Positions 9,146 to 50,574 of a stretch of 64,000 nt of DNA are shown in pieces. Each line of letters starts with the position of its first letter. Positions within the stretch are counted from its first letter, which is position 1. Made by a program: the position numbers and the translations under genes. Location: the NCBI GenBank assembly GCA_035529595.1, contig DATKWK010000039.1, forward strand, positions 14,751 through 78,750. Direction: 5' to 3'. The stretch is from Candidatus Bathyarchaeia archaeon. Its GTDB lineage: Bacteria; Patescibacteriota; Microgenomatia; PFEM01; JAFGMK01. Under the pieces are notes generated by a model. It was given only the letters and a program-made list of their open reading frames with translations. It had not been told where the DNA came from and made no database searches.

Positions 9146-9400
9146 ATGTATCAAGTTCAAAAGAAAGACGGTAGTCTGCAGGACTTCGATCGAGAAAAAA
9201 TTAAGAATGGCGTTTTCCAGTCCGGCGGATCGGATGAAGATGCCGAAAAAGTTGTTGCCGCAGTTGAAGGTTGGTTGCCAACAGTTGCAGCTCAGGGAGT
9301 AGTTAAATCTCCTGATCTTCGCGCTAAAGTTTTGGAGGTTTTAAGATTAATCAATTCGACAGCTGCGACCAGCTTTGAATCTTACCAAAAACCAGCTTAA
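9146..9400 (+). CDS. standalone ATP-cone domain protein
   Basis: 'YQVQKKDGSLQDFDREKIKNGV' matches the ATP-cone N-terminal consensus (V.KRDG..E.FD..KI). Strong RBS 'ggaaaggaggtggag'. Confidence 0.55.
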   Translation: MYQVQKKDGSLQDFDREKIKNGVFQSGGSDEDAEKVVAAVEGWLPTVAAQGVVKSPDLRAKVLEVLRLINSTAATSFESYQKPA

Positions 9401-37813: not shown

Positions 37814-38476
37814 TTGGAGAGTATAATCAGATTTATGATTAAGAGGGCAGTCTCAATTGCAGTAGTTCTTTTTCTGGCTTTCTCAATTTTAGGCGTTTCT
37901 ATTCTTAAAACTTCGGCCCAGACGGGCGGTTCTTGGTTAGATTCGTCACTTATCGCCTCACCATCCGGTCAGTTGTTGGTCGAGGAAGAGAGTCAAGCTA
38001 CAGGGACGACAGAAATAAAAGCAGTAGGACTCAAAGACGAAATTGACTATTCCCTTCCATATCCGGGAATTCTTCCCGGTCAGCCTCTTTATTTCTTAAA
38101 AATGATTCGGGATCAAATTGAGTTGTTTTTGACAACAGAACCTTTAAAGAAAGCGGAAAAACTGTTATTGTTTGCTGATAAAAGAATTAGTGCTGCCAGA
38201 GTATTGGTAGAAGCCGGTAAAGCGGATTTAGCCTTGTCAACCGCCACTAAGGCAGAAAAATATTTAGAAAGAACAGTTAATCAGGCAGCAAAGGCAAGAC
38301 AGGAGGGTTTCAATATTTATTTGTTTCTGGAAAGGTTGACAAAAGCCACGGCTAAACATGAGGAAGTTTTATTGGGAATGAAGGAAAGAATCGGGGATAA
38401 AGAGGAAATCTTTAATCAACTCCTTAATTATTCAAAGCAAGGATCAGACCAGATTAAGCAGTTATTGGAAGATTGA
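37814..38476 (+). CDS. secreted hypothetical protein (signal peptide plus helical repeats)
   Basis: N-terminal signal/TM segment, then an Ala/Lys/Glu-rich helical region. Confidence 0.4.
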   Translation: MESIIRFMIKRAVSIAVVLFLAFSILGVSILKTSAQTGGSWLDSSLIASPSGQLLVEEESQATGTTEIKAVGLKDEIDYSLPYPGILPGQPLYFLKMIRDQIELFLTTEPLKKAEKLLLFADKRISAARVLVEAGKADLALSTATKAEKYLERTVNQAAKARQEGFNIYLFLERLTKATAKHEEVLLGMKERIGDKEEIFNQLLNYSKQGSDQIKQLLED

Positions 38477-38697
38477 CTAATAATAGCTTAACAAAGTGTC
38501 ACTTCTCTTTGAATGTTTTTTGAGAGCTGGATTTTTTCTGCTGATCTATTATGAGTTGTTTATATCGCCTTGACATGTTTTCTAAGCAGTCTGTTATGAT
38601 AGCACTACTTTCTTAACTTTCAAAAAAGGGCAGACAGAACTGTAAGTTAAGGATCCTTTAACGGTCAATATTTATCTGTTTCTTTTAGAGGTATTTT

Positions 38698-40590
38698 GTG
38701 GCGTCAATAAAAACCAAGATTGATCCAACTGATTTTGCCAGAATCGGCAGTATTAACGGTACTGGGGAAAATACGATCATTAGCTTAGATGAGATTGGTG
38801 ATATCATTACTTCTGAAGGCAGTAAAGATGATGCTAACAAGATTAATACGCCTGAAGGAACTTCTTTTACTCTCTCCGAGTTCTTGAAAAAGGAATACGC
38901 CTTAAGAAAAGTATTTTCAAAACCAGTTGCCGAAGCTCATCGCAAGGGTGACATTATGTTGCATAAGCTCGGTTTTATCGATCGGCCTTATTGTTCGGGT
39001 CAGAGCCTTGAGTATGTGAAGAAATTTGGTCTTACTCACTATGCTTCTTTTGCAGCAGTGAAACCGGCCGGTCGTATTGAAGCACTGATTGACCATATGA
39101 TGAGAATGACAATGGCACTTCGGGCTCATTTTGGTGGGGCGATTGGTTGGGACGCTTTAAATATGTATATGGCTCCTTATTTGGGAGGAATAGGAGATCG
39201 GGATATCCGGCAGATTGCTCAAACAATCATTTATGGGTTTAATCAAACAGTTGGGCCTCATGGAGGCCAACCCGTCTTTTCCGATATTAACCTCTATTGG
39301 GAGATCCCTGATCATTTTGCTAATGTGCCGGCGATTGGTCCCCGAGGGGAATATACTGGTCGGACGTACAAAGATTATATCAAAGAGTCACAAGCTCTAG
39401 TTTGGCAGCTTTTAAACATTTATAAAAAAGGCGATGCTAAAGGTAAGCCTTTTTTCTGGCCTAAACCTAATATCCATATTACTAAAAAATTCTGGCAAAC
39501 ACCCGGTCACGAGCAATTTTTAGAGCATGTTTGTGACGTGGCTTCTAAAATGGGGAACCCTTATTTTATTTTTGATCGCGGATCAACGGCCAAGATTTCT
39601 GAATGTTGTCGTCTACAATTCGAGCTCTCTAAAGAAGATCTAAAAGATGCGCGCAAACCGTGGCGGATGCGTTATGCCGCCTGCCCTTATTTGGGGGTTA
39701 ATCTGCCAAGAATTGCCTATGAAGCCGGTCATGACGATCAGAAGTTTTTTGAGATTCTGGGAAGGAGACTGGAACTACTGACCCAAGCCCATCTTCAAAA
39801 ATACCGTTTCTTGAAGAAGCTATTTATGATGGGTTCAGCAGGTCCTTTGGGGATGTTGACGCTTCGGGCTAAGGGGGATTCAGAAACGTATCTACGGATA
39901 GAAAAGTTGAGTTTCATGAATGCAGTCGGTGGTCTTTCTGATGCCTGTAAGTATCATTTAGGAAAGGCAATTCACGAGTCTGGTCAAGCATTCAAATTTG
40001 GTTTGAAGGTGGTCGCTTTTATGAAAAAGAAATGTGATGAAGAAAGTAATAAAGCTGGAATTAAGATTCTTTTGGATCAGGAACCGGCTGAGTCGGCAAT
40101 GTACCGTTTCGCCAAGCTGGATCTTTTATATTTCCCCGAGCAAGCAAAAAAAATTGTTCATGGTGATCTAAAAAAAGGCGAAATTTATTATACCAATTCA
40201 AGCCAGTTAGATGTCGATGCCGATGTTGATATTTTTGAAAGAATTGAAACCGAAGGAAAGTTTCATTCAATGTTGCAAGGAGGAGCGTTGACTCATATTT
40301 GGTTAGGAGAATCGCGGCCGTCGCCTCGATCCATGGCCCGGTTGGTAAAAAAGGTTTTCGACGAGACTCAGAACGTCCAAGTGGCTTTTAGTCCCGAGTT
40401 TACTATCTGTAATGATTGCGGATGGACAACTCGGGGAATAAAGAAACGATGTCATTTTTGCCAAAGCAGGCAAGTCGATTGGATTACCCGCATCACTGGT
40501 TATTATTCCTTTGTTAAGCTCTGGAACCGAGGCAAGAGGGGAGAGTTGAGGGATCGGAGAAGAGAAAAAAATTACCGTTTCAAAAAATGA
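38698..40590 (+). CDS. nrdD: anaerobic ribonucleoside-triphosphate reductase (class III), copy 1, no ATP-cone
   Basis: C-terminal Zn ribbon 'CNDCG...CHFCQS'; glycyl-radical motif 'TRITGYYS'; 'CCRL' active-site region. GTG start. Confidence 0.85.
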   Translation: MASIKTKIDPTDFARIGSINGTGENTIISLDEIGDIITSEGSKDDANKINTPEGTSFTLSEFLKKEYALRKVFSKPVAEAHRKGDIMLHKLGFIDRPYCSGQSLEYVKKFGLTHYASFAAVKPAGRIEALIDHMMRMTMALRAHFGGAIGWDALNMYMAPYLGGIGDRDIRQIAQTIIYGFNQTVGPHGGQPVFSDINLYWEIPDHFANVPAIGPRGEYTGRTYKDYIKESQALVWQLLNIYKKGDAKGKPFFWPKPNIHITKKFWQTPGHEQFLEHVCDVASKMGNPYFIFDRGSTAKISECCRLQFELSKEDLKDARKPWRMRYAACPYLGVNLPRIAYEAGHDDQKFFEILGRRLELLTQAHLQKYRFLKKLFMMGSAGPLGMLTLRAKGDSETYLRIEKLSFMNAVGGLSDACKYHLGKAIHESGQAFKFGLKVVAFMKKKCDEESNKAGIKILLDQEPAESAMYRFAKLDLLYFPEQAKKIVHGDLKKGEIYYTNSSQLDVDADVDIFERIETEGKFHSMLQGGALTHIWLGESRPSPRSMARLVKKVFDETQNVQVAFSPEFTICNDCGWTTRGIKKRCHFCQSRQVDWITRITGYYSFVKLWNRGKRGELRDRRREKNYRFKK

Positions 40591-42692
40591 ATAGAAAAGT
40601 TCTAAAAACATATAGAGAAAAACGCGACGAAGTCTTGGACCGGGTGATGAATGTTCGAACGAGTGAGGATGAGTTGCGCAAATGGGATCACCAGGCGATC
40701 ATTCGGTCTTTAAAAACTGAGCTTGGTCCGGTTGATGGGCTTTGGGAGGAGATCGCTAAAAAAATTGAGCTTGATTTGAATAGAATGGGAGTCGAAACGA
40801 TTACCGCGCCGCTGATTCGTGAATTAGTTTGTGTTGAGCTGCTTCGTCGGGGAATGGAAAAAGAGTATAAAAAGTACCAGCGCCTTGGCGTACCCATTTA
40901 TGATGTCGACAATATTATTTTTACTCACAATACCGCCCGTTCTTCTAATAATCCTCATACACCGGAGACTACTAATCTGACCTTAGCCGAGTCAATTAAA
41001 AAAGATTATGCTTTATCAAGGATTTTTTCGCCGTCAGTTGCCGAAGCTCATCTTAAAGGTGATTTTCATCTGCATAAACTCGACTTTCCTGACCGGCCTT
41101 ATTGCTGTGGCAACAGCCTAGAATACGTCAAAAAATATGGCTTAAACACGGCTGCCTCCTTGGCAATTGCCAAACCGGCAAAACATGCCGATGTATTGAT
41201 TCTTCATATGATTAAATTTTCCTGTATGCTTCAAGTACACTTTTCCGGAGCTATTGGTTGGGAAGCGGTGAATATTTTTTTAGCCCCTTTTCTCGTCGGA
41301 GCAAGCGATCATGACTTAGAAGCCTTAGCTCAGCTTTTGATTTATGAATTCAACATGCAGAATGTAGCCAAAGGCGGCCAGGCAGTATTTTCTGATATTA
41401 ATCTTTACTGGGAGGTTCCGGATCACTACCGAAAAACACCGGCGATCGGACCGGGTGGAAAATATACCGGTAAAACCTACGGTGACTACCAGAAAGAGTC
41501 TCAACGGTTTTTGACTGCCCTGATGAAAGTTTATCTAAAAGGAGATGCCAGCGAACGGCCTTTTTTTTGGCCTAAACCGAACTTTCATATGACCGAAAAG
41601 TTTTGGCAATCTCCCGGCCATGAAGAGTTTTTAGAACTGGCTAGTACCGTCGCCGCCGAAAAGGGTAATACCGAATTTTTCTTTGACCGTGGTTCGTCGG
41701 TACGAATCTCTCAGTGTTGCCGGCTTTCATTTAAACTAAGCGAAGCGGAACTGGTGCAAACCAGACACCCGGAAAGAATGCGGCAAGCTTCGGGGCAATT
41801 TATTTCTCTGTTTCTGCCGCGGATTGCTTATGAAGCTTGTGGTTCAGAAAGAAAACTCTTTTCTATTCTAGGCAAAAGAATGGAGTTGGCTGCTAAAGCG
41901 CATCGTCAAAAGCATCGCTTTTTGTCTCGTTTGTTGGAGATGGGGATTGAAGGGCCGCTGTCGGCTTTATCTACAAAACAGAAGGACGACCCCGAGCCTT
42001 ACTATCGCCTTAAGAATTCGGTTTATCTTTTTACAATCGCCGGACTTAACGAGATGATTCAGTACCATACCGGTCAGGAACTTCACCAATCCGATCAGGC
42101 CTTAAAAATGGGTTTAAAAGTAATCAGCTTCATGAATAAAAAATGTACAGAGTTAGCCGGGAGGTATAAAATGCGTTTTGCCTTGGAACAATCGCCGATG
42201 GAAGGAACTTGTTATCGGATTGCTAAGCTTGATCTGAAATATTTTCCAAATCAAGCAAGTAAGGTAGTGAAAGGTAATTTAAATACAGGAGCAGTTTACT
42301 ACACTAATTCTTCTCAACTTAATAATAGTGTCAATATCGATCCGGTAGAAAGGGTTTACAAAGAAGGTCTTTTCCATCCTTTAATTGATGCCGGGGCAAT
42401 GACTCATATTTGGATTGGCGAACAGCAACCTTCCGCTTTAAGCATCGCCAGTTTCGTTAAAAAAACTTTTTACAATACGCGCAATGAATTGATTGCCTTT
42501 TCTCCGGAATTCAGTTTTTGTGGTGATTGCCGAAAAACCAGCCGGGGTTTGGTTAAAAAGTGCTTATTCTGTGGTTCGCAGGACATTGATCATGCCACTA
42601 GGGTTTCCGGCTTTTTTTCACTTACTTCAAGATGGAACAAGGGCAAAATCCAGGAATTAGAAGACAGATATCGGAATGAGGAAAGGTTTTAA
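40587..42692 (+). CDS. nrdD: anaerobic ribonucleoside-triphosphate reductase (class III), copy 2, with a degenerate N-terminal ATP-cone-like extension
   Basis: Clear paralog of copy 1 ('FSPSVAEAHLKGDFHLHKLDFPDRPYCCGNSLEYVKKYGL'); 'CGDC...CLFCGS'; radical motif 'TRVSGFFS'. The ATG overlaps the copy-1 stop (ATGA). Confidence 0.85.
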   Translation: MNRKVLKTYREKRDEVLDRVMNVRTSEDELRKWDHQAIIRSLKTELGPVDGLWEEIAKKIELDLNRMGVETITAPLIRELVCVELLRRGMEKEYKKYQRLGVPIYDVDNIIFTHNTARSSNNPHTPETTNLTLAESIKKDYALSRIFSPSVAEAHLKGDFHLHKLDFPDRPYCCGNSLEYVKKYGLNTAASLAIAKPAKHADVLILHMIKFSCMLQVHFSGAIGWEAVNIFLAPFLVGASDHDLEALAQLLIYEFNMQNVAKGGQAVFSDINLYWEVPDHYRKTPAIGPGGKYTGKTYGDYQKESQRFLTALMKVYLKGDASERPFFWPKPNFHMTEKFWQSPGHEEFLELASTVAAEKGNTEFFFDRGSSVRISQCCRLSFKLSEAELVQTRHPERMRQASGQFISLFLPRIAYEACGSERKLFSILGKRMELAAKAHRQKHRFLSRLLEMGIEGPLSALSTKQKDDPEPYYRLKNSVYLFTIAGLNEMIQYHTGQELHQSDQALKMGLKVISFMNKKCTELAGRYKMRFALEQSPMEGTCYRIAKLDLKYFPNQASKVVKGNLNTGAVYYTNSSQLNNSVNIDPVERVYKEGLFHPLIDAGAMTHIWIGEQQPSALSIASFVKKTFYNTRNELIAFSPEFSFCGDCRKTSRGLVKKCLFCGSQDIDHATRVSGFFSLTSRWNKGKIQELEDRYRNEERF

Positions 42693-42694
42693 GG

Positions 42695-42979
42695 ATGATT
42701 ATAAAAATTTTTACCCAACCGGATTGTCCTAATTGCCCACCGGCTAAAACGCTGGGTAAGCAAATTGAGTCAGAAATGAAAAGAAGCAGGTGGCCCGGAT
42801 TGACAATTGACTGGTTTGATACTACCGAAGTGGACGGTATGGCAGAGGCGGCTTTCTATCAGGTGATGGGAACGCCAACGGTTCTTCTTATTGATGATAA
42901 AGGGGGAATAGTAGCAGAATGGCGCAGCAAGGTGCCTGAGAAACAAGAGATCCTTTCTAATTTAGGATTAAAGGAATAA
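42695..42979 (+). CDS. glutaredoxin/NrdH-like thioredoxin-fold protein
   Basis: 'CPNC' active site near the N-terminus and 'GTPTVLL' cis-Pro region. Confidence 0.6.
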   Translation: MIIKIFTQPDCPNCPPAKTLGKQIESEMKRSRWPGLTIDWFDTTEVDGMAEAAFYQVMGTPTVLLIDDKGGIVAEWRSKVPEKQEILSNLGLKE

Positions 42980-43032
42980 ATAGTTTCATTAAAAGAGACA
43001 GCTTAAATTTTCCATAAGGCTATGCGTTCTCA

Positions 43033-43872
43033 TTAGCTTAGCAGATAGCGGAATTCTTCCAACTTTTTCTCTTCAAATTCGACCCTTTTAGCCTTGACTT
43101 TTCTAAAGACAACCGGGTTTGTTTTGGTAATTTTGAAATATTTAACCGGCAAGCCTTGTTCCTTTTTCATTTTTATTTCTGCCAGAACCCCGTCGCTGAT
43201 TTCTCCAAAAACCCAAACTTCATCACTGATTCTGATAATATTGCCGTTGGCGATATAAACAGGGTTACGGGGTGTTACTGTATCGCAGAAGAAATAAGTG
43301 AATAACATCGACGGATTTAAAGGAACCTTCTTTTTCTGAAGGCAAAATTTACTGATTTGCATTTCTGCGTAGAAATTTCTTTTTGAAATTGCCGTGTAAA
43401 CAATTGGGTATGTTTTTTTGAACCTTAATCTCGGATGCCATCTTTCCAGATTTTTTCCATTTTTAATCCACTGCCACATCCATCGGGATATGTCTTCAAG
43501 CCTTACGTCGTTTTGGGAGATTTCTTTAAAGTTTGCCGTTTCATCGTCAAAACTATAGTAATGTATAGGTTTTTGGTACTTTTTAGCAAAGTAAATTTCT
43601 ACCAAAACCCCGTCGCTGATTTCTCCGAAAACCCAGACCTCATCGCATTTTTTAATCATGGTGTTATTGGCAATTCTTGTTAAGTCTTTACTTATAGCTC
43701 CGGCGAGATGATAATCAAGATTTAAAAACGAATTTATTGGAGTTTGTTTTTGATTGAGAACAAAAATGCTGATTTGGGAACGAAAATAGAAATTTCTTTT
43801 TGAAATTGCCGTGTAGATTAATTTGTTATTTTGCTGCAAGTTTAACGAGTGATGTTTATAATTTCTGGCCAT
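43033..43872 (-). CDS. internally duplicated protein with two nucleoside-2-deoxyribosyltransferase-like/DUF4406-like domains
   Basis: Two ~135-aa repeats each carry 'YTAISKRNFY...' and 'DEVWVFGEISDGVL(V/A)EI...(K/G)(P/L)(I/V)(H/K)Y(Y/F)'. The underlying DNA repeats are 28-44 nt near-identical blocks about 425 bp apart. Confidence 0.4.
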   Translation of the reverse strand: MARNYKHHSLNLQQNNKLIYTAISKRNFYFRSQISIFVLNQKQTPINSFLNLDYHLAGAISKDLTRIANNTMIKKCDEVWVFGEISDGVLVEIYFAKKYQKPIHYYSFDDETANFKEISQNDVRLEDISRWMWQWIKNGKNLERWHPRLRFKKTYPIVYTAISKRNFYAEMQISKFCLQKKKVPLNPSMLFTYFFCDTVTPRNPVYIANGNIIRISDEVWVFGEISDGVLAEIKMKKEQGLPVKYFKITKTNPVVFRKVKAKRVEFEEKKLEEFRYLLS

Positions 43873-43986
43873 AGAGTATTATTGATTAATAGATTCTTGG
43901 ACCAAGAATATTAAATTATTTTAATCTTGTCAACAGTTAGCCTTTTTTTGTTAGTTGCCGTTGGACCAAAATAAGTATATTAATTT

Positions 43987-44748
43987 ATGAGGATTGCAGG
44001 ATATCTAAGAACCTCTCTCATCGAATGGCCGGGAAATATTAGCGCCGTAATTTTTGTTCCAGGCTGCAATTTCCGTTGTCCTTTTTGTCATAACCGAGAT
44101 TTGGTGATAAGTAAGAAAGTAACCAGATTACAGAACTACAAAGAAAAAGAAGTGCTGACGGATTTGAGACAGCGAAAGAGGTGGATTGACGGAGTGGTAA
44201 TTACCGGTGGCGAACCGACTCTACAGACAGATTTATCCACCTTTTTAAAAGGTTTAAAAAGAGCTGGTTTTCTTACCATGATTGAGACTAATGGCTCTCG
44301 TCCGGAAGTCATTAAACAGTTGGTAAGGGAAGAGCTTGTTGATTTTTGGGCAATGGACTATAAAGCAATATTTTCAGACTATGAAAATGTGGTCAATATC
44401 AAAAAGGTAAAGAAAAAATTTAGAAAGAATGAGGCTCTAGGTTTGGTCAAAGCGGTTAAGAGATCAATGAGGCTGATTTTGAAATCTGGCTTACCTTGTG
44501 AATTTCGGACGACGGTAGTGCCGACGATTCATAATGAAAAAGTTTTGATTGAGATGGCCAAAGAGTTAAAACATCTCTTAGTCATTACCGACTGGTTATC
44601 ACCAGTCAAGTGGGTATTGCAGACTTTCCAGCCTAAAAATTGCCTTGATCAGAAATATAATAATATTAAACCCTGTACTCGAAAAAAAATGAAAGGTTTT
44701 TTAGCGCTGATACGGGAATATATTCCAGAAGCAAGACTTGGATTCTGA
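43987..44748 (+). CDS. nrdG: anaerobic ribonucleotide reductase-activating protein (radical SAM)
   Basis: 'GCNFRCPFCHN' (CxxxCxxC) and 'GVVITGGEPTLQ'. Confidence 0.8.
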   Translation: MRIAGYLRTSLIEWPGNISAVIFVPGCNFRCPFCHNRDLVISKKVTRLQNYKEKEVLTDLRQRKRWIDGVVITGGEPTLQTDLSTFLKGLKRAGFLTMIETNGSRPEVIKQLVREELVDFWAMDYKAIFSDYENVVNIKKVKKKFRKNEALGLVKAVKRSMRLILKSGLPCEFRTTVVPTIHNEKVLIEMAKELKHLLVITDWLSPVKWVLQTFQPKNCLDQKYNNIKPCTRKKMKGFLALIREYIPEARLGF

Positions 44749-45101
44749 AAATACTTGTTGACTAGGGTAGAGGGCTGTGCCACCATGAAAGATGTTTTTG
44801 CTTTTTGAATTTTGTAATTTTGAAACTCTTTAATTATGAAAAAGAACAAGATTAAGAATGGCACTTCTTTTTGGTGGGAGAAAGACAAGTCAAATCCAGA
44901 GAAATCCAGGCGAGGGCGGTTCAGAAAATTGGATTCGGTAAAAAAACTACTGGGCAGCCTTGAAAAGACAAGTAATGAATGAGATAAACGGCCGATACTT
45001 CTTTTTATCCTTTACCAATTGTTCTTCAATCGTGTTTTTACTATAATGACGATAACTAGATCTGATTTTATTTTAAGATCATTTAATTTTTTTAGTAATT
45101 T

Positions 45102-45488
45102 ATGGCAGCTACGGACAAAGAACTAGGAGTAGCCTCTCTGGAAACAAGGCGCAAGGTTATTAAACGGTTATTTGGGAAAGAGCGAAAATTTCCGGTGGTA
45201 GAAATTCCCCAAATACCCGAAATCCCACCGGAGATTGAAAAAGCACAGCCTGTTACCGGCGCAGCAACCCAACTGCCGCAAGCGGTTATTGATGATCAGA
45301 CCGGCCAAGTGCTTGTGAGCTCCCCTGGCGACCAAGGACAGATCGTCCTGCCTTTAACGGAAGAGGAAATAGAAAAAGGGCTGACTTATCAGGTTATTGA
45401 TTCGATCCGTTGGTTAGCCGAATGGTGTGTCCGGTTAGCTAAAAGGGTCGGATTAGTGATTAGACCAAAAAAAAGAAAGAAAGGTTAA
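45102..45488 (+). CDS. hypothetical protein
   Basis: -10-like 'tactataat' at ~45036; Pro/Glu-rich middle; no recognised motif. Confidence 0.35.
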   Translation: MAATDKELGVASLETRRKVIKRLFGKERKFPVVEIPQIPEIPPEIEKAQPVTGAATQLPQAVIDDQTGQVLVSSPGDQGQIVLPLTEEEIEKGLTYQVIDSIRWLAEWCVRLAKRVGLVIRPKKRKKG

Positions 45489-47880: not shown

Positions 47881-47952
47881 GCGCCTGTAGCTCAATGGTA
47901 GAGCATTACTCTTATAAAGTAAGGGTTCTTGGTTCGAATCCAAGCAGGCGCA
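47881..47952 (+). tRNA. tRNA-Ile, anticodon UAU
   Basis: Hand-folded cloverleaf: acceptor gcgcctg/caggcgc, D arm gctc-aatggta-gagc, anticodon stem ttact/agtaa with loop c-t-TAT-a-a, T arm cttgg-ttcgaat-ccaag. Confidence 0.65.
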
Positions 47953-47996
47953 CACTCAAAGAAAAGTAAGGAAGGTGCTTGAAAGCCGAAGGATTC

Positions 47997-49360: not shown

Positions 49361-49386
49361 AGGAATATTGTTATTCGCAGGCTGAG

Positions 49387-49459
49387 TGCTAGGAGACGGA
49401 TTCGAACCGTCGACCCATCGCTTATGAAACGATTGCTCTACCACTGAGCTATCCTAGCA
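49387..49459 (-). tRNA. tRNA-Met, anticodon CAU (elongator-type stems)
   Basis: Reverse complement folds as gctagga/tcctagc acceptor, GCTCAGTGGTAGAGC D arm, anticodon loop tt-CAT-aa, T arm gacgg-ttcgaat-ccgtc. Confidence 0.75.
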
Positions 49460-50495: not shown

Positions 50496-50565
50496 TGCGG
50501 GGTAGTGTACGGCTGCACGTGAGGCTCATAATCTCACAGGCCAGGTTCAACTCCTGGCCCCGCAA
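50496..50565 (+). tRNA. tRNA with anticodon CAU (Met or Ile2-type; 70 nt, short D-loop, U1:A72)
   Basis: Hand fold: acceptor tgcgggg/ccccgca, D stem gtgt/gcac, anticodon stem tgagg/tctca with loop ct-CAT-aa, T arm ccagg-ttcaact-cctgg. Confidence 0.55.
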
Positions 50566-50574
50566 CAAAAATTT

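What the first reader, a model, noticed from the sequence alone, without database searches (positions are those of the whole stretch)
38698..44748. Class III RNR locus with two tandem, translationally coupled NrdD paralogs, a redoxin, NrdG and a deoxyribosyltransferase-like protein
Two full-length NrdD genes (630 and 701 aa) sit head-to-tail with an ATGA overlap. Both retain the Zn ribbon and a C-terminal glycyl-radical motif (TRITGYYS and TRVSGFFS). Copy 2 carries a degenerate ATP-cone-like N-terminal extension and copy 1 has none; a free-standing ATP-cone protein is encoded elsewhere (9146-9400). A CPNC glutaredoxin-like gene immediately follows, suggesting a thiol-dependent (non-formate) NrdD subtype. 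The activase NrdG is separated from nrdD by a minus-strand gene whose two repeated domains resemble the nucleoside 2-deoxyribosyltransferase/DUF4406 fold. Together this looks like a self-contained anaerobic dNTP-supply and salvage module. Co-expression of two NrdD paralogs (differential allosteric regulation, or heteromeric use) is unusual.
Basis: partly seen in the sequence, partly recalled or inferred. Interest (0 to 1): 0.55.

Follow-up and report, generated by a model that had tools for sequence, protein, structure and literature searches.

The report
Conserved tandem anaerobic ribonucleotide reductase paralogs
A small-genome (Patescibacteria-type) bacterium carries two adjacent, diverged copies of the oxygen-sensitive enzyme that makes DNA building blocks, plus its activator and a small thiol-reducing helper protein. 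The same two-copy layout recurs in its relatives and has not been described, but every individual part is of a known kind.

Summary
Two intact nrdD genes (630 and 701 aa, ATGA overlap) are followed 2 nt later by a CPNC redoxin. A minus-strand 2xDUF7768 gene comes next, then nrdG.

Both copies keep every catalytic hallmark I could map: the Tyr-Cys on the first strand, the xCCR finger loop, the zinc-ribbon cysteines and the RxxG(Y/F) glycyl motif. The Tm-E495 acid is Glu in the long copy and Asp in the short one. These are the thiol-dependent (NrdD2-like) signatures, not the formate type.

The pair is not a quirk of this genome. Short-then-long nrdD plus the redoxin was found in every related Patescibacteria locus with enough sequence, at about 49% identity between copies. 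A separate tandem duplication exists in Margulisiibacteriota.

The long copy's N-terminus is a degenerate ATP-cone. The short copy lost it by internal deletion.

The DUF7768 protein has a deoxyribosyltransferase-like fold but sits in the nrd locus only here and in one relative. The free-standing ATP-cone gene 30 kb away has no demonstrable link.

Whether the paralogs form one heterodimer or two enzymes cannot be decided here. This is a new variant of a known system, of moderate interest.

The parts
38570..38600 (+). Promoter-like element upstream of the operon: TTGACA, 19 nt, TATGAT, with TGT just before the -10 hexamer
   Evidence: Read directly. The TTGACA...TATGAT-like pair aligns in the upstream regions of window, L001, L002, L004 and L006. 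The consensus scan did not list it because the spacer exceeds 18 nt. Function is inferred.
38698..40590 (+). nrdD-short (630 aa): class III RNR catalytic subunit without the N-terminal cone domain. Y98-C99, E302-C303-C304-R305, D460-Q461, zinc-ribbon C571/C574/C585/C588, R598..G601-Y602
   Evidence: Pfam NRDD 419.6 bits and TIGR02487 374.4 bits. Site table. Its clade (25 sequences) is 100% bootstrap-monophyletic. The cone was lost by internal deletion, with the N-terminal TDFA(L) motif kept. AGAGG lies 8 nt before the GTG start.
40587..42692 (+). nrdD-long (701 aa): class III RNR catalytic subunit with an N-terminal cone-like domain. Y172-C173, Q376-C377-C378-R379, E534-Q535, zinc-ribbon C645/C648/C659/C662, R672..G675-F676. 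Carries genome-specific N409F and G323E
   Evidence: Pfam NRDD 440.7 bits and TIGR02487 398.7 bits. Site table. ATGA overlap with the upstream gene. N409F is the only non-Asn among 204 family sequences at 'NLPR'. The codon is TTT where relatives have AAT.
40647..40877 (+). Degenerate ATP-cone-like domain of nrdD-long (aa 21-97)
   Evidence: PF03477 scores 19.1-19.2 bits, below the gathering score of 25.8. 21 of 22 homologous N-termini hit PF03477, best E 1.7e-7. The AF2 model (core pLDDT about 80) has NrdR, S. thermophilus NrdD and P. copri NrdD cones as top Foldseek hits, at weak E-values of 0.17-1.3. The canonical V-x-K-R-D-G is replaced by V-R-T-S-E-D.
42695..42979 (+). Small thioredoxin-fold redoxin (94 aa, C11-P-N-C14-P), the presumed reductant of the NrdD active-site disulfide
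   Evidence: PF13192 Thioredoxin_3 scores 28.6 bits against a cut-off of 24.8. The best solved relative is M. jannaschii MJ0307 thioredoxin 1FO5, E 3.8e-5. It starts 2 nt after nrdD-long. Orthologous CPxCP redoxins follow nrdD in related loci.
43033..43872 (-). 2 x DUF7768 protein (279 aa) with a nucleoside 2'-deoxyribosyltransferase-like fold. A lineage-variable insertion between the redoxin gene and nrdG
   Evidence: PF24963 scores 69.6 bits. 143 mostly Patescibacteria homologues of about 278 aa. AF2 pLDDT 87.5 and pTM 0.85. The top Foldseek hits are Chroococcidiopsis NDT, prob 0.99, E 2.8e-3, TM about 0.4 per domain. It is in an nrd locus only here and in L166.
43987..44748 (+). nrdG (253 aa): radical-SAM activase that installs the glycyl radical. 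Cluster motif C27-x3-C31-x2-C34
   Evidence: TIGR02495 NrdG2 scores 179.8 bits against a cut-off of 131.15. Also hits Radical_SAM and Fer4_12. The motif is read.
9146..9400 (+). Free-standing canonical ATP-cone protein (84 aa; V-Q-K-K-D-G...F-D-x-x-K-I).
   Evidence: PF03477 scores 35.1 bits. It belongs to a family of 161 representatives, almost all 80-100 aa. None lies within the 6-8 kb flank held for any nrd locus.

Best explanation
This is the anaerobic dNTP-synthesis operon of a Patescibacteria-type genome. It encodes a thiol-dependent (NrdD2-like) class III ribonucleotide reductase with two old, lineage-specific paralogous catalytic subunits. They share one activase and one dedicated redoxin.

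Proposed mechanism, inferred from homology:
1. NrdG cleaves S-adenosylmethionine and puts a glycyl radical on G601 (short copy) and G675 (long copy).
2. The radical passes to the finger-loop cysteine (C304 / C378), which abstracts the 3'-H of an NTP.
3. The 2'-OH is reduced by the cysteine pair C99+C303 / C173+C377, with D460 / E534 acting as the base.
4. The resulting disulfide is re-reduced by the co-translated MJ0307-type CPNC redoxin rather than by formate.

Both paralogs are predicted to be catalytically competent. They differ where regulation resides: the cone domain (deleted in the short copy, degenerate in the long one), the start of helix alphaA, and loop 2. I therefore read them as sub-functionalised partners that divide allosteric or substrate control. 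Whether they work as two homodimers or as one alpha/alpha' heterodimer is not resolved.

The DUF7768 gene is an NDT-fold nucleotide-metabolism enzyme inserted in this lineage. It is not a core part of the system.
For: Shown:
- Both genes are intact, full-length NrdD above the curated cut-offs.
- Y-C, xCCR, Q, PxE, the four Zn cysteines and R..G are conserved in all sequences with a residue at those columns, across 25 short-clade, 24 long-clade, 26 Margulisiibacteriota-type and 129 single-copy sequences.
- The E-Q pair aligns with T. maritima E495-Q496, while formate-type T4, S. thermophilus and P. copri have Y/L-S/A there.
- The third-Cys and Glu criteria for NrdD2 are stated in PMC4493059.
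- Short-then-long nrdD plus redoxin (plus nrdG where the contig extends) occurs in every Patescibacteria locus with enough sequence.
- Within-genome identity between copies stays at 46-53%, and each clade is 66-69% self-identical, so both are under purifying selection.
- Shared derived residues (F328W, F340W, mostly D164K) and 100/100 NJ bootstraps point to one duplication inside the lineage. A second, independent one in Margulisiibacteriota has 99/100 support.
- The loop 2 and alphaA differences are clade-specific and conserved.

Inferred: all chemistry, the electron donor, and the division of labour.
Against: - No biochemical data exist for any member of this clade.
- The short copy in this window has Asp, not Glu, at the Tm-E495 position (11 of 25 short-clade sequences do).
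- The long copy in this window alone has Phe at the otherwise invariant Asn of 'NLPR', and Glu at an invariant Gly. This particular copy could therefore be impaired.
- The sister grouping of the two Patescibacteria clades could be long-branch attraction. They are less similar to each other (49%) than to the outgroup (51-54%).
- The E495 residue number is recalled from Wei et al. 2014, which I could not read.
Confidence: 0.6

Rival explanations
1. Obligate alpha/alpha' heterodimer. The two paralogs assemble into a single asymmetric class III RNR. The built-in half-of-sites behaviour of NrdD dimers is hard-wired: one subunit is specialised for catalysis, the other for effector sensing or radical storage.
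For: - Strict co-occurrence and fixed gene order, with stop/start overlaps in many loci: ATGA here and in L004 and L087, and 8-11 nt overlaps in L006 and L086.
- The same tandem solution arose independently in Margulisiibacteriota, again with overlaps.
- In each lineage one paralog keeps the ancestral P-A-K-H start of alphaA and the other loses the Lys. It is lost in the short clade and in Margulisiibacteriota copy 2.
- P. copri NrdD dimers show one active and one inactive monomer (PMC11226230).
Against: - Both subunits keep the complete catalytic and glycyl-radical apparatus.
- The copy-1 and copy-2 trees are discordant and pairwise identities correlate poorly (r = 0.44). This window and L087 combine a copy 1 of one group with a copy 2 of another, which argues against tightly co-adapted partners.
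- Gaps of 32-125 nt between the genes in some relatives show that coupling is not obligatory.
- No interface model could be computed here.
Confidence: 0.3
2. One active enzyme plus a catalytically impaired paralog. In this genome the long copy (N409F, G323E) is drifting towards a non-catalytic scaffold, a regulatory role or a pseudo-enzyme.
For: N409F is unique among 204 sequences, at an Asn also conserved in T4 (N318), S. thermophilus and T. maritima (N375). It needs two adjacent base changes, AAT to TTT. It is reproduced in NCBI, JGI, ENA and Logan assemblies. G323E is a second radical change at a near-invariant site.
Against: - Only 2 of 126 near-invariant columns deviate, and the ORF is intact.
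- All Cys, Gly and Zn residues are kept.
- P. copri NrdD lacks this Asn yet is active (PMC11226230).
- The long clade as a whole is as conserved as the short one.
Confidence: 0.1

Closest known systems
Thioredoxin-dependent class III RNR (NrdD2 of Wei et al. 2014): Neisseria bacilliformis NrdD and Thermotoga maritima NrdD (PDB 4U3E, 4COI)
   Same: Tyr-Cys on the first strand, two adjacent cysteines in an xCCR motif, the E-Q-x-P-A-E motif (Tm E495), a zinc ribbon, a glycyl radical motif and NrdG activation.
   Different: Only distant sequence similarity (E about 1e-10 for a single sequence, 6e-27 for the profile). The motif is E/QCCR, not SCCR. The nearest single-copy relatives are Desulfomonilaceae, Syntrophaceae and Methanomassiliicoccales enzymes of about 700 aa with a cone-like domain. 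There are two tandem paralogs instead of one gene, and a dedicated redoxin gene in the operon.
Methanosarcina barkeri class III RNR (NrdD3) with an operon-encoded NrdH-like redoxin and ferredoxin:disulfide reductase (Wei et al. 2015; cited in PMC8365446, not read)
   Same: A small redoxin encoded beside nrdD and nrdG as the presumed dedicated electron donor.
   Different: NrdD3 is defined as lacking the active-site Glu (PMC4493059), whereas the long copy here has it. No disulfide reductase gene was seen in the locus. The redoxin here is the MJ0307 type (CPNCP).
Prevotella copri NrdD (PDB 8P23), ATP-cone-regulated and formate-dependent
   Same: The N-terminal cone fold is followed by a linker and an NxN flap before the barrel. 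The cone of the long copy superposes on it (rmsd 2.7 A over 72 columns).
   Different: The cone here lacks the K-R-D-G nucleotide-binding hairpin. The first Asn of the NxN flap is Asp (short copy) or Ser (long copy). The reductant chemistry differs.
Same-class RNR paralogs with divided roles: NrdJ pairs with NDP versus NTP specificity (PMC8365446), and yeast Rnr2/Rnr4 (own knowledge)
   Same: Two paralogs of one RNR subunit are retained in one genome, either with different substrate handling or as a heterodimer in which one partner is specialised.
   Different: Those involve class II or class I. No class III case with conserved tandem catalytic paralogs was found in the library searched.

Membership tests
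Class III RNR catalytic subunit NrdD (PF13597 / TIGR02487) | Full-length profile match above the curated cut-off | tested here: met
   Short copy 419.6 bits (Pfam) and 374.4 bits (TIGR02487). Long copy 440.7 and 398.7 bits. The TIGR02487 cut-off is 326.35.
Class III RNR catalytic subunit NrdD (PF13597 / TIGR02487) | C-terminal glycyl-radical motif R-x-x-G-(Y/F), preceded by a four-Cys zinc ribbon | tested here: met
   R598..G601-Y602 with C571/C574/C585/C588, and R672..G675-F676 with C645/C648/C659/C662. Conserved in every family sequence that has a residue at these columns.
Class III RNR catalytic subunit NrdD (PF13597 / TIGR02487) | Finger-loop thiyl cysteine and first-strand cysteine (T4 C290 and C79) | tested here: met
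   C304 and C99 (short), C378 and C173 (long), by alignment to S. thermophilus and T. maritima NrdD (phmmer), to T4 and T. maritima (profile), and with the motifs quoted in PMC4493059.
Class III RNR catalytic subunit NrdD (PF13597 / TIGR02487) | Cognate radical-SAM activase NrdG | tested here: met
   TIGR02495 NrdG2 scores 179.8 bits against 131.15, 1 kb downstream.
NrdD2 subtype (thiol/thioredoxin-dependent; Wei et al. 2014, as summarised in PMC4493059) | A third active-site cysteine (xCCR) | tested here: met
   ECCR (short) and QCCR (long). C-C is conserved in 203 of 204 sequences; the one exception is an ambiguous X.
NrdD2 subtype (thiol/thioredoxin-dependent; Wei et al. 2014, as summarised in PMC4493059) | Active-site glutamate (Tm E495 / Nb E438) | tested here: inconclusive
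   The long copy has E534. The short copy has D460; the short clade has E in 14 and D in 11. The position is mapped by counting in the T. maritima alignment. The number E495 is from memory, and Nb E438 is cited in PMC4390871. No structure-based check was possible.
NrdD2 subtype (thiol/thioredoxin-dependent; Wei et al. 2014, as summarised in PMC4493059) | Turnover with a thioredoxin system instead of formate | not testable with these tools
   Only circumstantial: a co-translated redoxin, conserved next to nrdD in about 47 of 166 family loci.
ATP-cone (PF03477), N-terminus of the long copy | Profile match above the gathering score, with nucleotide-binding K-R-D-G and K residues | tested here: not met
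   19.1 bits against 25.8. The sequence is V-R-T-S-E-D in place of V-x-K-R-D-G. The fold and homology are supported, so it works like a cone scaffold but is not a canonical nucleotide-binding member.
ATP-cone (PF03477), ORF 9146-9400 | Profile match above the gathering score, with a canonical hairpin | tested here: met
   35.1 bits against 25.8. The sequence is V-Q-K-K-D-G...F-D-R-E-K-I.
MJ0307-family thioredoxin (TIGR00411) / Thioredoxin_3 (PF13192) | Thioredoxin fold with an N-terminal CxxC | tested here: met
   PF13192 scores 28.6 bits against 24.8, with the CPNC motif. The best PDB hit is 1FO5. The TIGR00411 equivalog cut-off is not reached (29 against 92.75), so it is a relative, not an equivalog.
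Nucleoside 2'-deoxyribosyltransferase (NDT) superfamily | NDT fold with a nucleophilic Glu after a D-G-x-x-x-E-type segment | tested here: inconclusive
   No PF05014 hit; it hits DUF7768, plus a weak SLOG match. The confident model's top fold hits are NDT (prob 0.99, E 2.8e-3, TM about 0.4). Invariant D87-G88...E92 and G228...E232 exist. Their equivalence to the NDT nucleophile is my reading, not a test.

The most novel reading that the evidence does not exclude
The short and long NrdD form an obligate asymmetric alpha/alpha' heterodimer. This would be the first heteromeric glycyl-radical ribonucleotide reductase. The half-of-sites behaviour of class III RNR would be genetically fixed into one catalytic and one regulatory or radical-storing subunit. 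Such an arrangement would have evolved independently in Patescibacteria and Margulisiibacteriota. A further, less likely extension is that the free-standing ATP-cone protein supplies activity regulation in trans to these cone-less or cone-degenerate subunits.
Probability: 0.3. Interest if true: 0.75.

Novelty: new variant of a known kind. Interest (0 to 1): 0.45.

Why it matters
Class III RNRs are treated as alpha2 homodimers encoded by one gene. Patescibacteria have tiny genomes that rarely keep redundant genes. A clade-wide retention of two 49%-identical catalytic subunits behind one promoter therefore implies a real functional split.

The split could be in allosteric specificity, activity control or quaternary structure. 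A parallel duplication in Margulisiibacteriota suggests a recurrent selective advantage. The system offers a natural experiment on how RNR allostery (cone, specificity site, loop 2) can be partitioned between paralogs. It also provides an uncharacterised branch of thiol-dependent NrdD with its own redoxin.

It does not change the known chemistry, and all genes are already correctly named in public annotation.

Tried and rejected
- Wei et al. 2014 (the NrdD1/2/3 definitions) could not be read. I relied on Aurelius et al. 2015 and Lundin et al. 2015 instead.
- I first suspected that the Asn of 'NLPR' was T4 N311, the essential active-site Asn. Counting in the T4 alignment shows it is N318. N311 aligns near the family's invariant M-R. 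I therefore dropped the claim that N409F removes a known catalytic residue.
They returned mostly single-copy outgroup loci and only about six extra Patescibacteria loci. Further pairs were inferred from matching contig lengths.
- The Rfam scan of 38300-45200 found nothing.
- A search for the free-standing ATP-cone near other nrd loci found none.
- Literature searches for tandem or duplicated prokaryotic nrdD, or for NrdD in CPR, returned nothing relevant.
- Heterodimer versus homodimer could not be tested. No multimer prediction and no model coordinates were available.
- A thioredoxin reductase was looked for among ten window ORFs and not found; they were glycolysis and pentose-phosphate genes, among others.
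Full report
**What is there.** The region holds five tightly packed genes.
- nrdD-short, 38698-40590, 630 aa. It has a GTG start with AGAGG 8 nt upstream.
- nrdD-long, 40587-42692, 701 aa.
- A 94-aa CPNC redoxin, 42695-42979.
- A minus-strand 279-aa gene, 43033-43872.
- nrdG, 43987-44748.

The first stop overlaps the second start (ATGA). The redoxin starts 2 nt after the long copy's stop. Both NrdDs match the Pfam and NCBIfam NrdD models end to end and above the curated cut-offs. NrdG passes the NrdG2 equivalog model. The two NrdDs are 51% identical over 597 residues without a gap.

**Are both copies real enzymes?** I aligned 204 non-redundant family members: 25 short-clade, 24 long-clade, 26 from Margulisiibacteriota-type tandem loci and 129 single-copy. 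The following are conserved in every sequence that has a residue at those columns:
- the first-strand Tyr-Cys;
- the C-C-R finger loop;
- the Q and PxE of the phosphate helix;
- the four zinc-ribbon cysteines;
- the Arg and Gly of the glycyl-radical motif.

Two caveats are specific to this genome. First, the long copy has Phe (TTT) where all 203 other sequences have Asn (AAT in relatives) in the 'NLPR' strand. It also has Glu at an otherwise invariant Gly. The same protein is present in four independent repositories. That Asn corresponds to T4 N318 and Tm N375, not to the essential T4 N311, and P. copri NrdD lacks it, so its loss is notable but not diagnostic. Second, the short copy has Asp rather than Glu at the position discussed next.

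**Which subtype?** PMC4493059 summarises Wei et al.'s scheme. NrdD2 (thiol-dependent) has a third active-site Cys and a Glu. NrdD3 has the Cys only. NrdD1 (formate-dependent) has neither. That paper also gives T4 as MGCR and Asn78-Cys79, against T. maritima SCCR and Tyr124-Cys125.

Here both copies, and the whole family, have Tyr-Cys and E/QCCR. In the profile alignment to solved structures, the family's L-E-Q-T-P-A-E aligns with T. maritima I-E495-Q-V-P-A-E. T4, S. thermophilus and P. copri have Y/L-S/A at the E-Q positions. The number E495 matches my recollection of Wei et al. 2014, which I could not open. The long copy has E534 and the short copy D460; the short clade has E in 14 and D in 11.

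A small redoxin with C-P-(K/N/R)-C-P follows nrdD in all Patescibacteria loci and in about 20 single-copy relatives. Margulisiibacteriota carry a C-E-(F/Y)-C version. Its closest solved relative is M. jannaschii MJ0307 thioredoxin.

**How widespread is the pair?** Contigs carrying short-clade proteins from Shapirobacteria, Pacebacteria and unnamed Patescibacteria all show short nrdD, long nrdD, redoxin and nrdG in that order. Most share the same flanks: two PBP1 genes, Rce1-like and DUF5667 upstream, and a DUF8128/TraG-like gene downstream. One more rearranged relative, L166, has different flanks.

Of 166 family loci examined (165 fetched plus the window), 24 carry two NrdDs. A few of these are the same contig fetched twice. 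They fall into a Patescibacteria set (short + long) and a Margulisiibacteriota-type set (both about 700 aa).

Neighbour-joining bootstraps place the two Patescibacteria clades as sisters (100/100) and the two Margulisiibacteriota clades as sisters (99/100). They are never paired across phyla. Shared derived residues in both Patescibacteria clades (F328W, F340W, mostly D164K) support a genuine in-lineage duplication. Long-branch attraction cannot be excluded with NJ alone.

Within-genome identity between copies is a steady 46-53%, so there is no gene conversion. Tandem duplication of nrdD therefore happened at least twice and was retained each time.

**The N-terminal domain.**
- The long copy's residues 21-97 give a sub-threshold ATP-cone match.
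- 21 of 22 homologous N-termini hit the same Pfam model, best E 1.7e-7.
- An AF2 model of residues 1-135 has overall pLDDT 65 and a core near 80. Its top Foldseek hits are NrdR and NrdD ATP-cones, at weak E-values but consistently.
- The nucleotide-binding hairpin V-x-K-R-D-G is V-R-T-S-x-E throughout the family. One 828-aa relative carries a canonical cone in front of this one.

It is thus a degenerate inner-type cone. The short clade keeps the very N-terminal T-D-F-A-L motif and then lacks the cone, which indicates an internal deletion. Over-long gene calls in some relatives are start-codon artefacts.

**Where the paralogs differ.** The conserved, clade-specific differences concentrate in regulatory elements. 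These are the cone, the first Asn of the NxN flap (Asp in short, Ser in long), the P-A-K-H start of helix alphaA, and loop 2.
- In alphaA, Lys is lost in the short clade and, in parallel, in Margulisiibacteriota copy 2, where the following His is also replaced by Asp or Glu.
- Loop 2 is NQTxGPHGAQP in the short clade and NxQNVAKGGQA in the long clade, against the ancestral SQQAVARGGQA.

According to the T. maritima and P. copri structures, these are the elements that read the specificity effector and gate substrate binding.

This pattern fits sub-functionalisation of allosteric control. It does not distinguish two homodimeric isozymes from an asymmetric heterodimer.
- For the heterodimer: strict co-occurrence, fixed order, frequent overlaps, and the known active/inactive monomer asymmetry of NrdD dimers.
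- Against it: the copy-1 and copy-2 trees disagree. This window and L087 have a copy 1 of the L006/L086 group (72-79% identity). Their copy 2 is only 55-58% identical to that group's copy 2, and 68-82% identical to copy 2 of other groups. The overall correlation of pairwise identities is only 0.44. Both subunits also retain full catalytic equipment.

The minus-strand protein is two DUF7768 domains. It belongs to a widespread Patescibacteria family of about 278 aa (143 hits; one is annotated DUF4406). A confident model (pLDDT 87.5) has cyanobacterial nucleoside 2'-deoxyribosyltransferase as its top fold match. The fold assignment is therefore right. However, the gene lies in an nrd locus only here and in one 89%-identical relative. 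Elsewhere it sits beside unrelated genes. It splits nrdG from the operon and has its own promoter-like site. I regard it as a lineage-specific insertion with at most a loose functional tie.

The 84-aa ORF at 9146-9400 is a canonical ATP-cone. It belongs to a family of stand-alone cones: 161 representatives, nearly all 80-100 aa. None lies within the 6-8 kb flank held for any nrd locus, and nothing connects it to NrdD.

**Comparison with what is known, and novelty.** All five proteins are already annotated correctly in GenBank, but under a Bathyarchaeia MAG label that looks like mis-binning. Thiol-dependent NrdD, operon-encoded redoxins and degenerate cones are all known.

What I could not find described is a conserved tandem pair of class III catalytic paralogs. 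The RNR literature only notes that multiple same-class genes are common. It also reports that NrdJ pairs often differ in phosphate specificity.

I therefore classify this as a new variant of a known kind. Interest is moderate at 0.45, and would rise substantially if the pair proves to be a heterodimer.

Noticed in passing
window 41811-41813 (codon 409 of nrdD-long) and 41553-41555 (codon 323): N409F (AAT to TTT) in the otherwise invariant 'NLPR' strand, and G323E in 'GDGxGRPFF'. Both are unique to this genome among 204 family sequences, and the same protein is present in several public assemblies.
   Followed up: partly
window 38543-38600; L001, L002, L004, L006 upstream regions: A conserved promoter-like TTGACA-N19-TATGAT lies upstream of nrdD-short. 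It is preceded by a TGAT-N8-TGAT-like direct repeat ('CTGATCTATTATGAG') that aligns across five Patescibacteria loci. This may be a regulator site.
   Followed up: no
window nrdD pair versus L087, L006, L086, P0003/P0165, P0011/P0173: Copy-1 and copy-2 phylogenies are discordant. This window and L087 carry a copy 1 close to the L006/L086 group (72-79%). Their copy 2 is only 55-58% identical to that group's copy 2 and closer to other lineages (up to 82%). This suggests replacement or recombination of one paralog.
   Followed up: partly
window 38698-42692 (codons K90 of the short copy, K164 of the long copy): The Asp of the triphosphate-binding H-x-H-D motif (T. maritima D115) is Lys in all 25 short-clade and 17 of 24 long-clade sequences. 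It is Asp in all 155 non-Patescibacteria relatives. This may mean altered phosphate handling.
   Followed up: no
L031, L048, L057, L074, L081, L106, L110, L112, L122, L130, L133: An independent tandem nrdD-nrdD-redoxin arrangement in Margulisiibacteriota-type genomes. Both copies are about 700 aa and the redoxin motif is CE(F/Y)C. Copy 2 has acidic substitutions at the P-A-K-H start of helix alphaA. nrdG is usually not adjacent.
   Followed up: partly
window 9146-9400: The stand-alone 84-aa canonical ATP-cone protein belongs to a family of about 160 representative clusters, almost all 80-100 aa. Its partner or function is unknown.
   Followed up: partly
whole window (proteins HUW22280, HUW22316-HUW22320): The identical proteins are deposited under a 'Candidatus Bathyarchaeia archaeon' MAG. 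Gene content (PBP1-type transglycosylase/transpeptidases in the syntenic loci) and all close homologues are Patescibacteria, so the contig is probably mis-binned.
   Followed up: partly
L004 10967-11404 and 12412-13609; L166 9101-10002: Relatives insert other small genes into the nrd operon. L004 has a NUDIX hydrolase between nrdD-long and the redoxin, with thymidylate-kinase-like and CYTH genes after nrdG. L166 has DUF1653 and a cupin. The operon seems to be a hot spot for accessory genes, some of them nucleotide-metabolism-related.
   Followed up: no
P0061 (828 aa): A single-copy family member carries a canonical ATP-cone (F-I-Q-K-R-D-G) N-terminal to the degenerate cone. This shows that the family's resident cone is an 'inner', degenerate one.
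   Followed up: no
window 47881-47953: A tRNA-Ile with anticodon TAT lies just downstream of the DUF8128/TraG-like gene. Two tRNA-Met (CAT) genes lie at 49386-49458 and 50496-50566.
   Followed up: no
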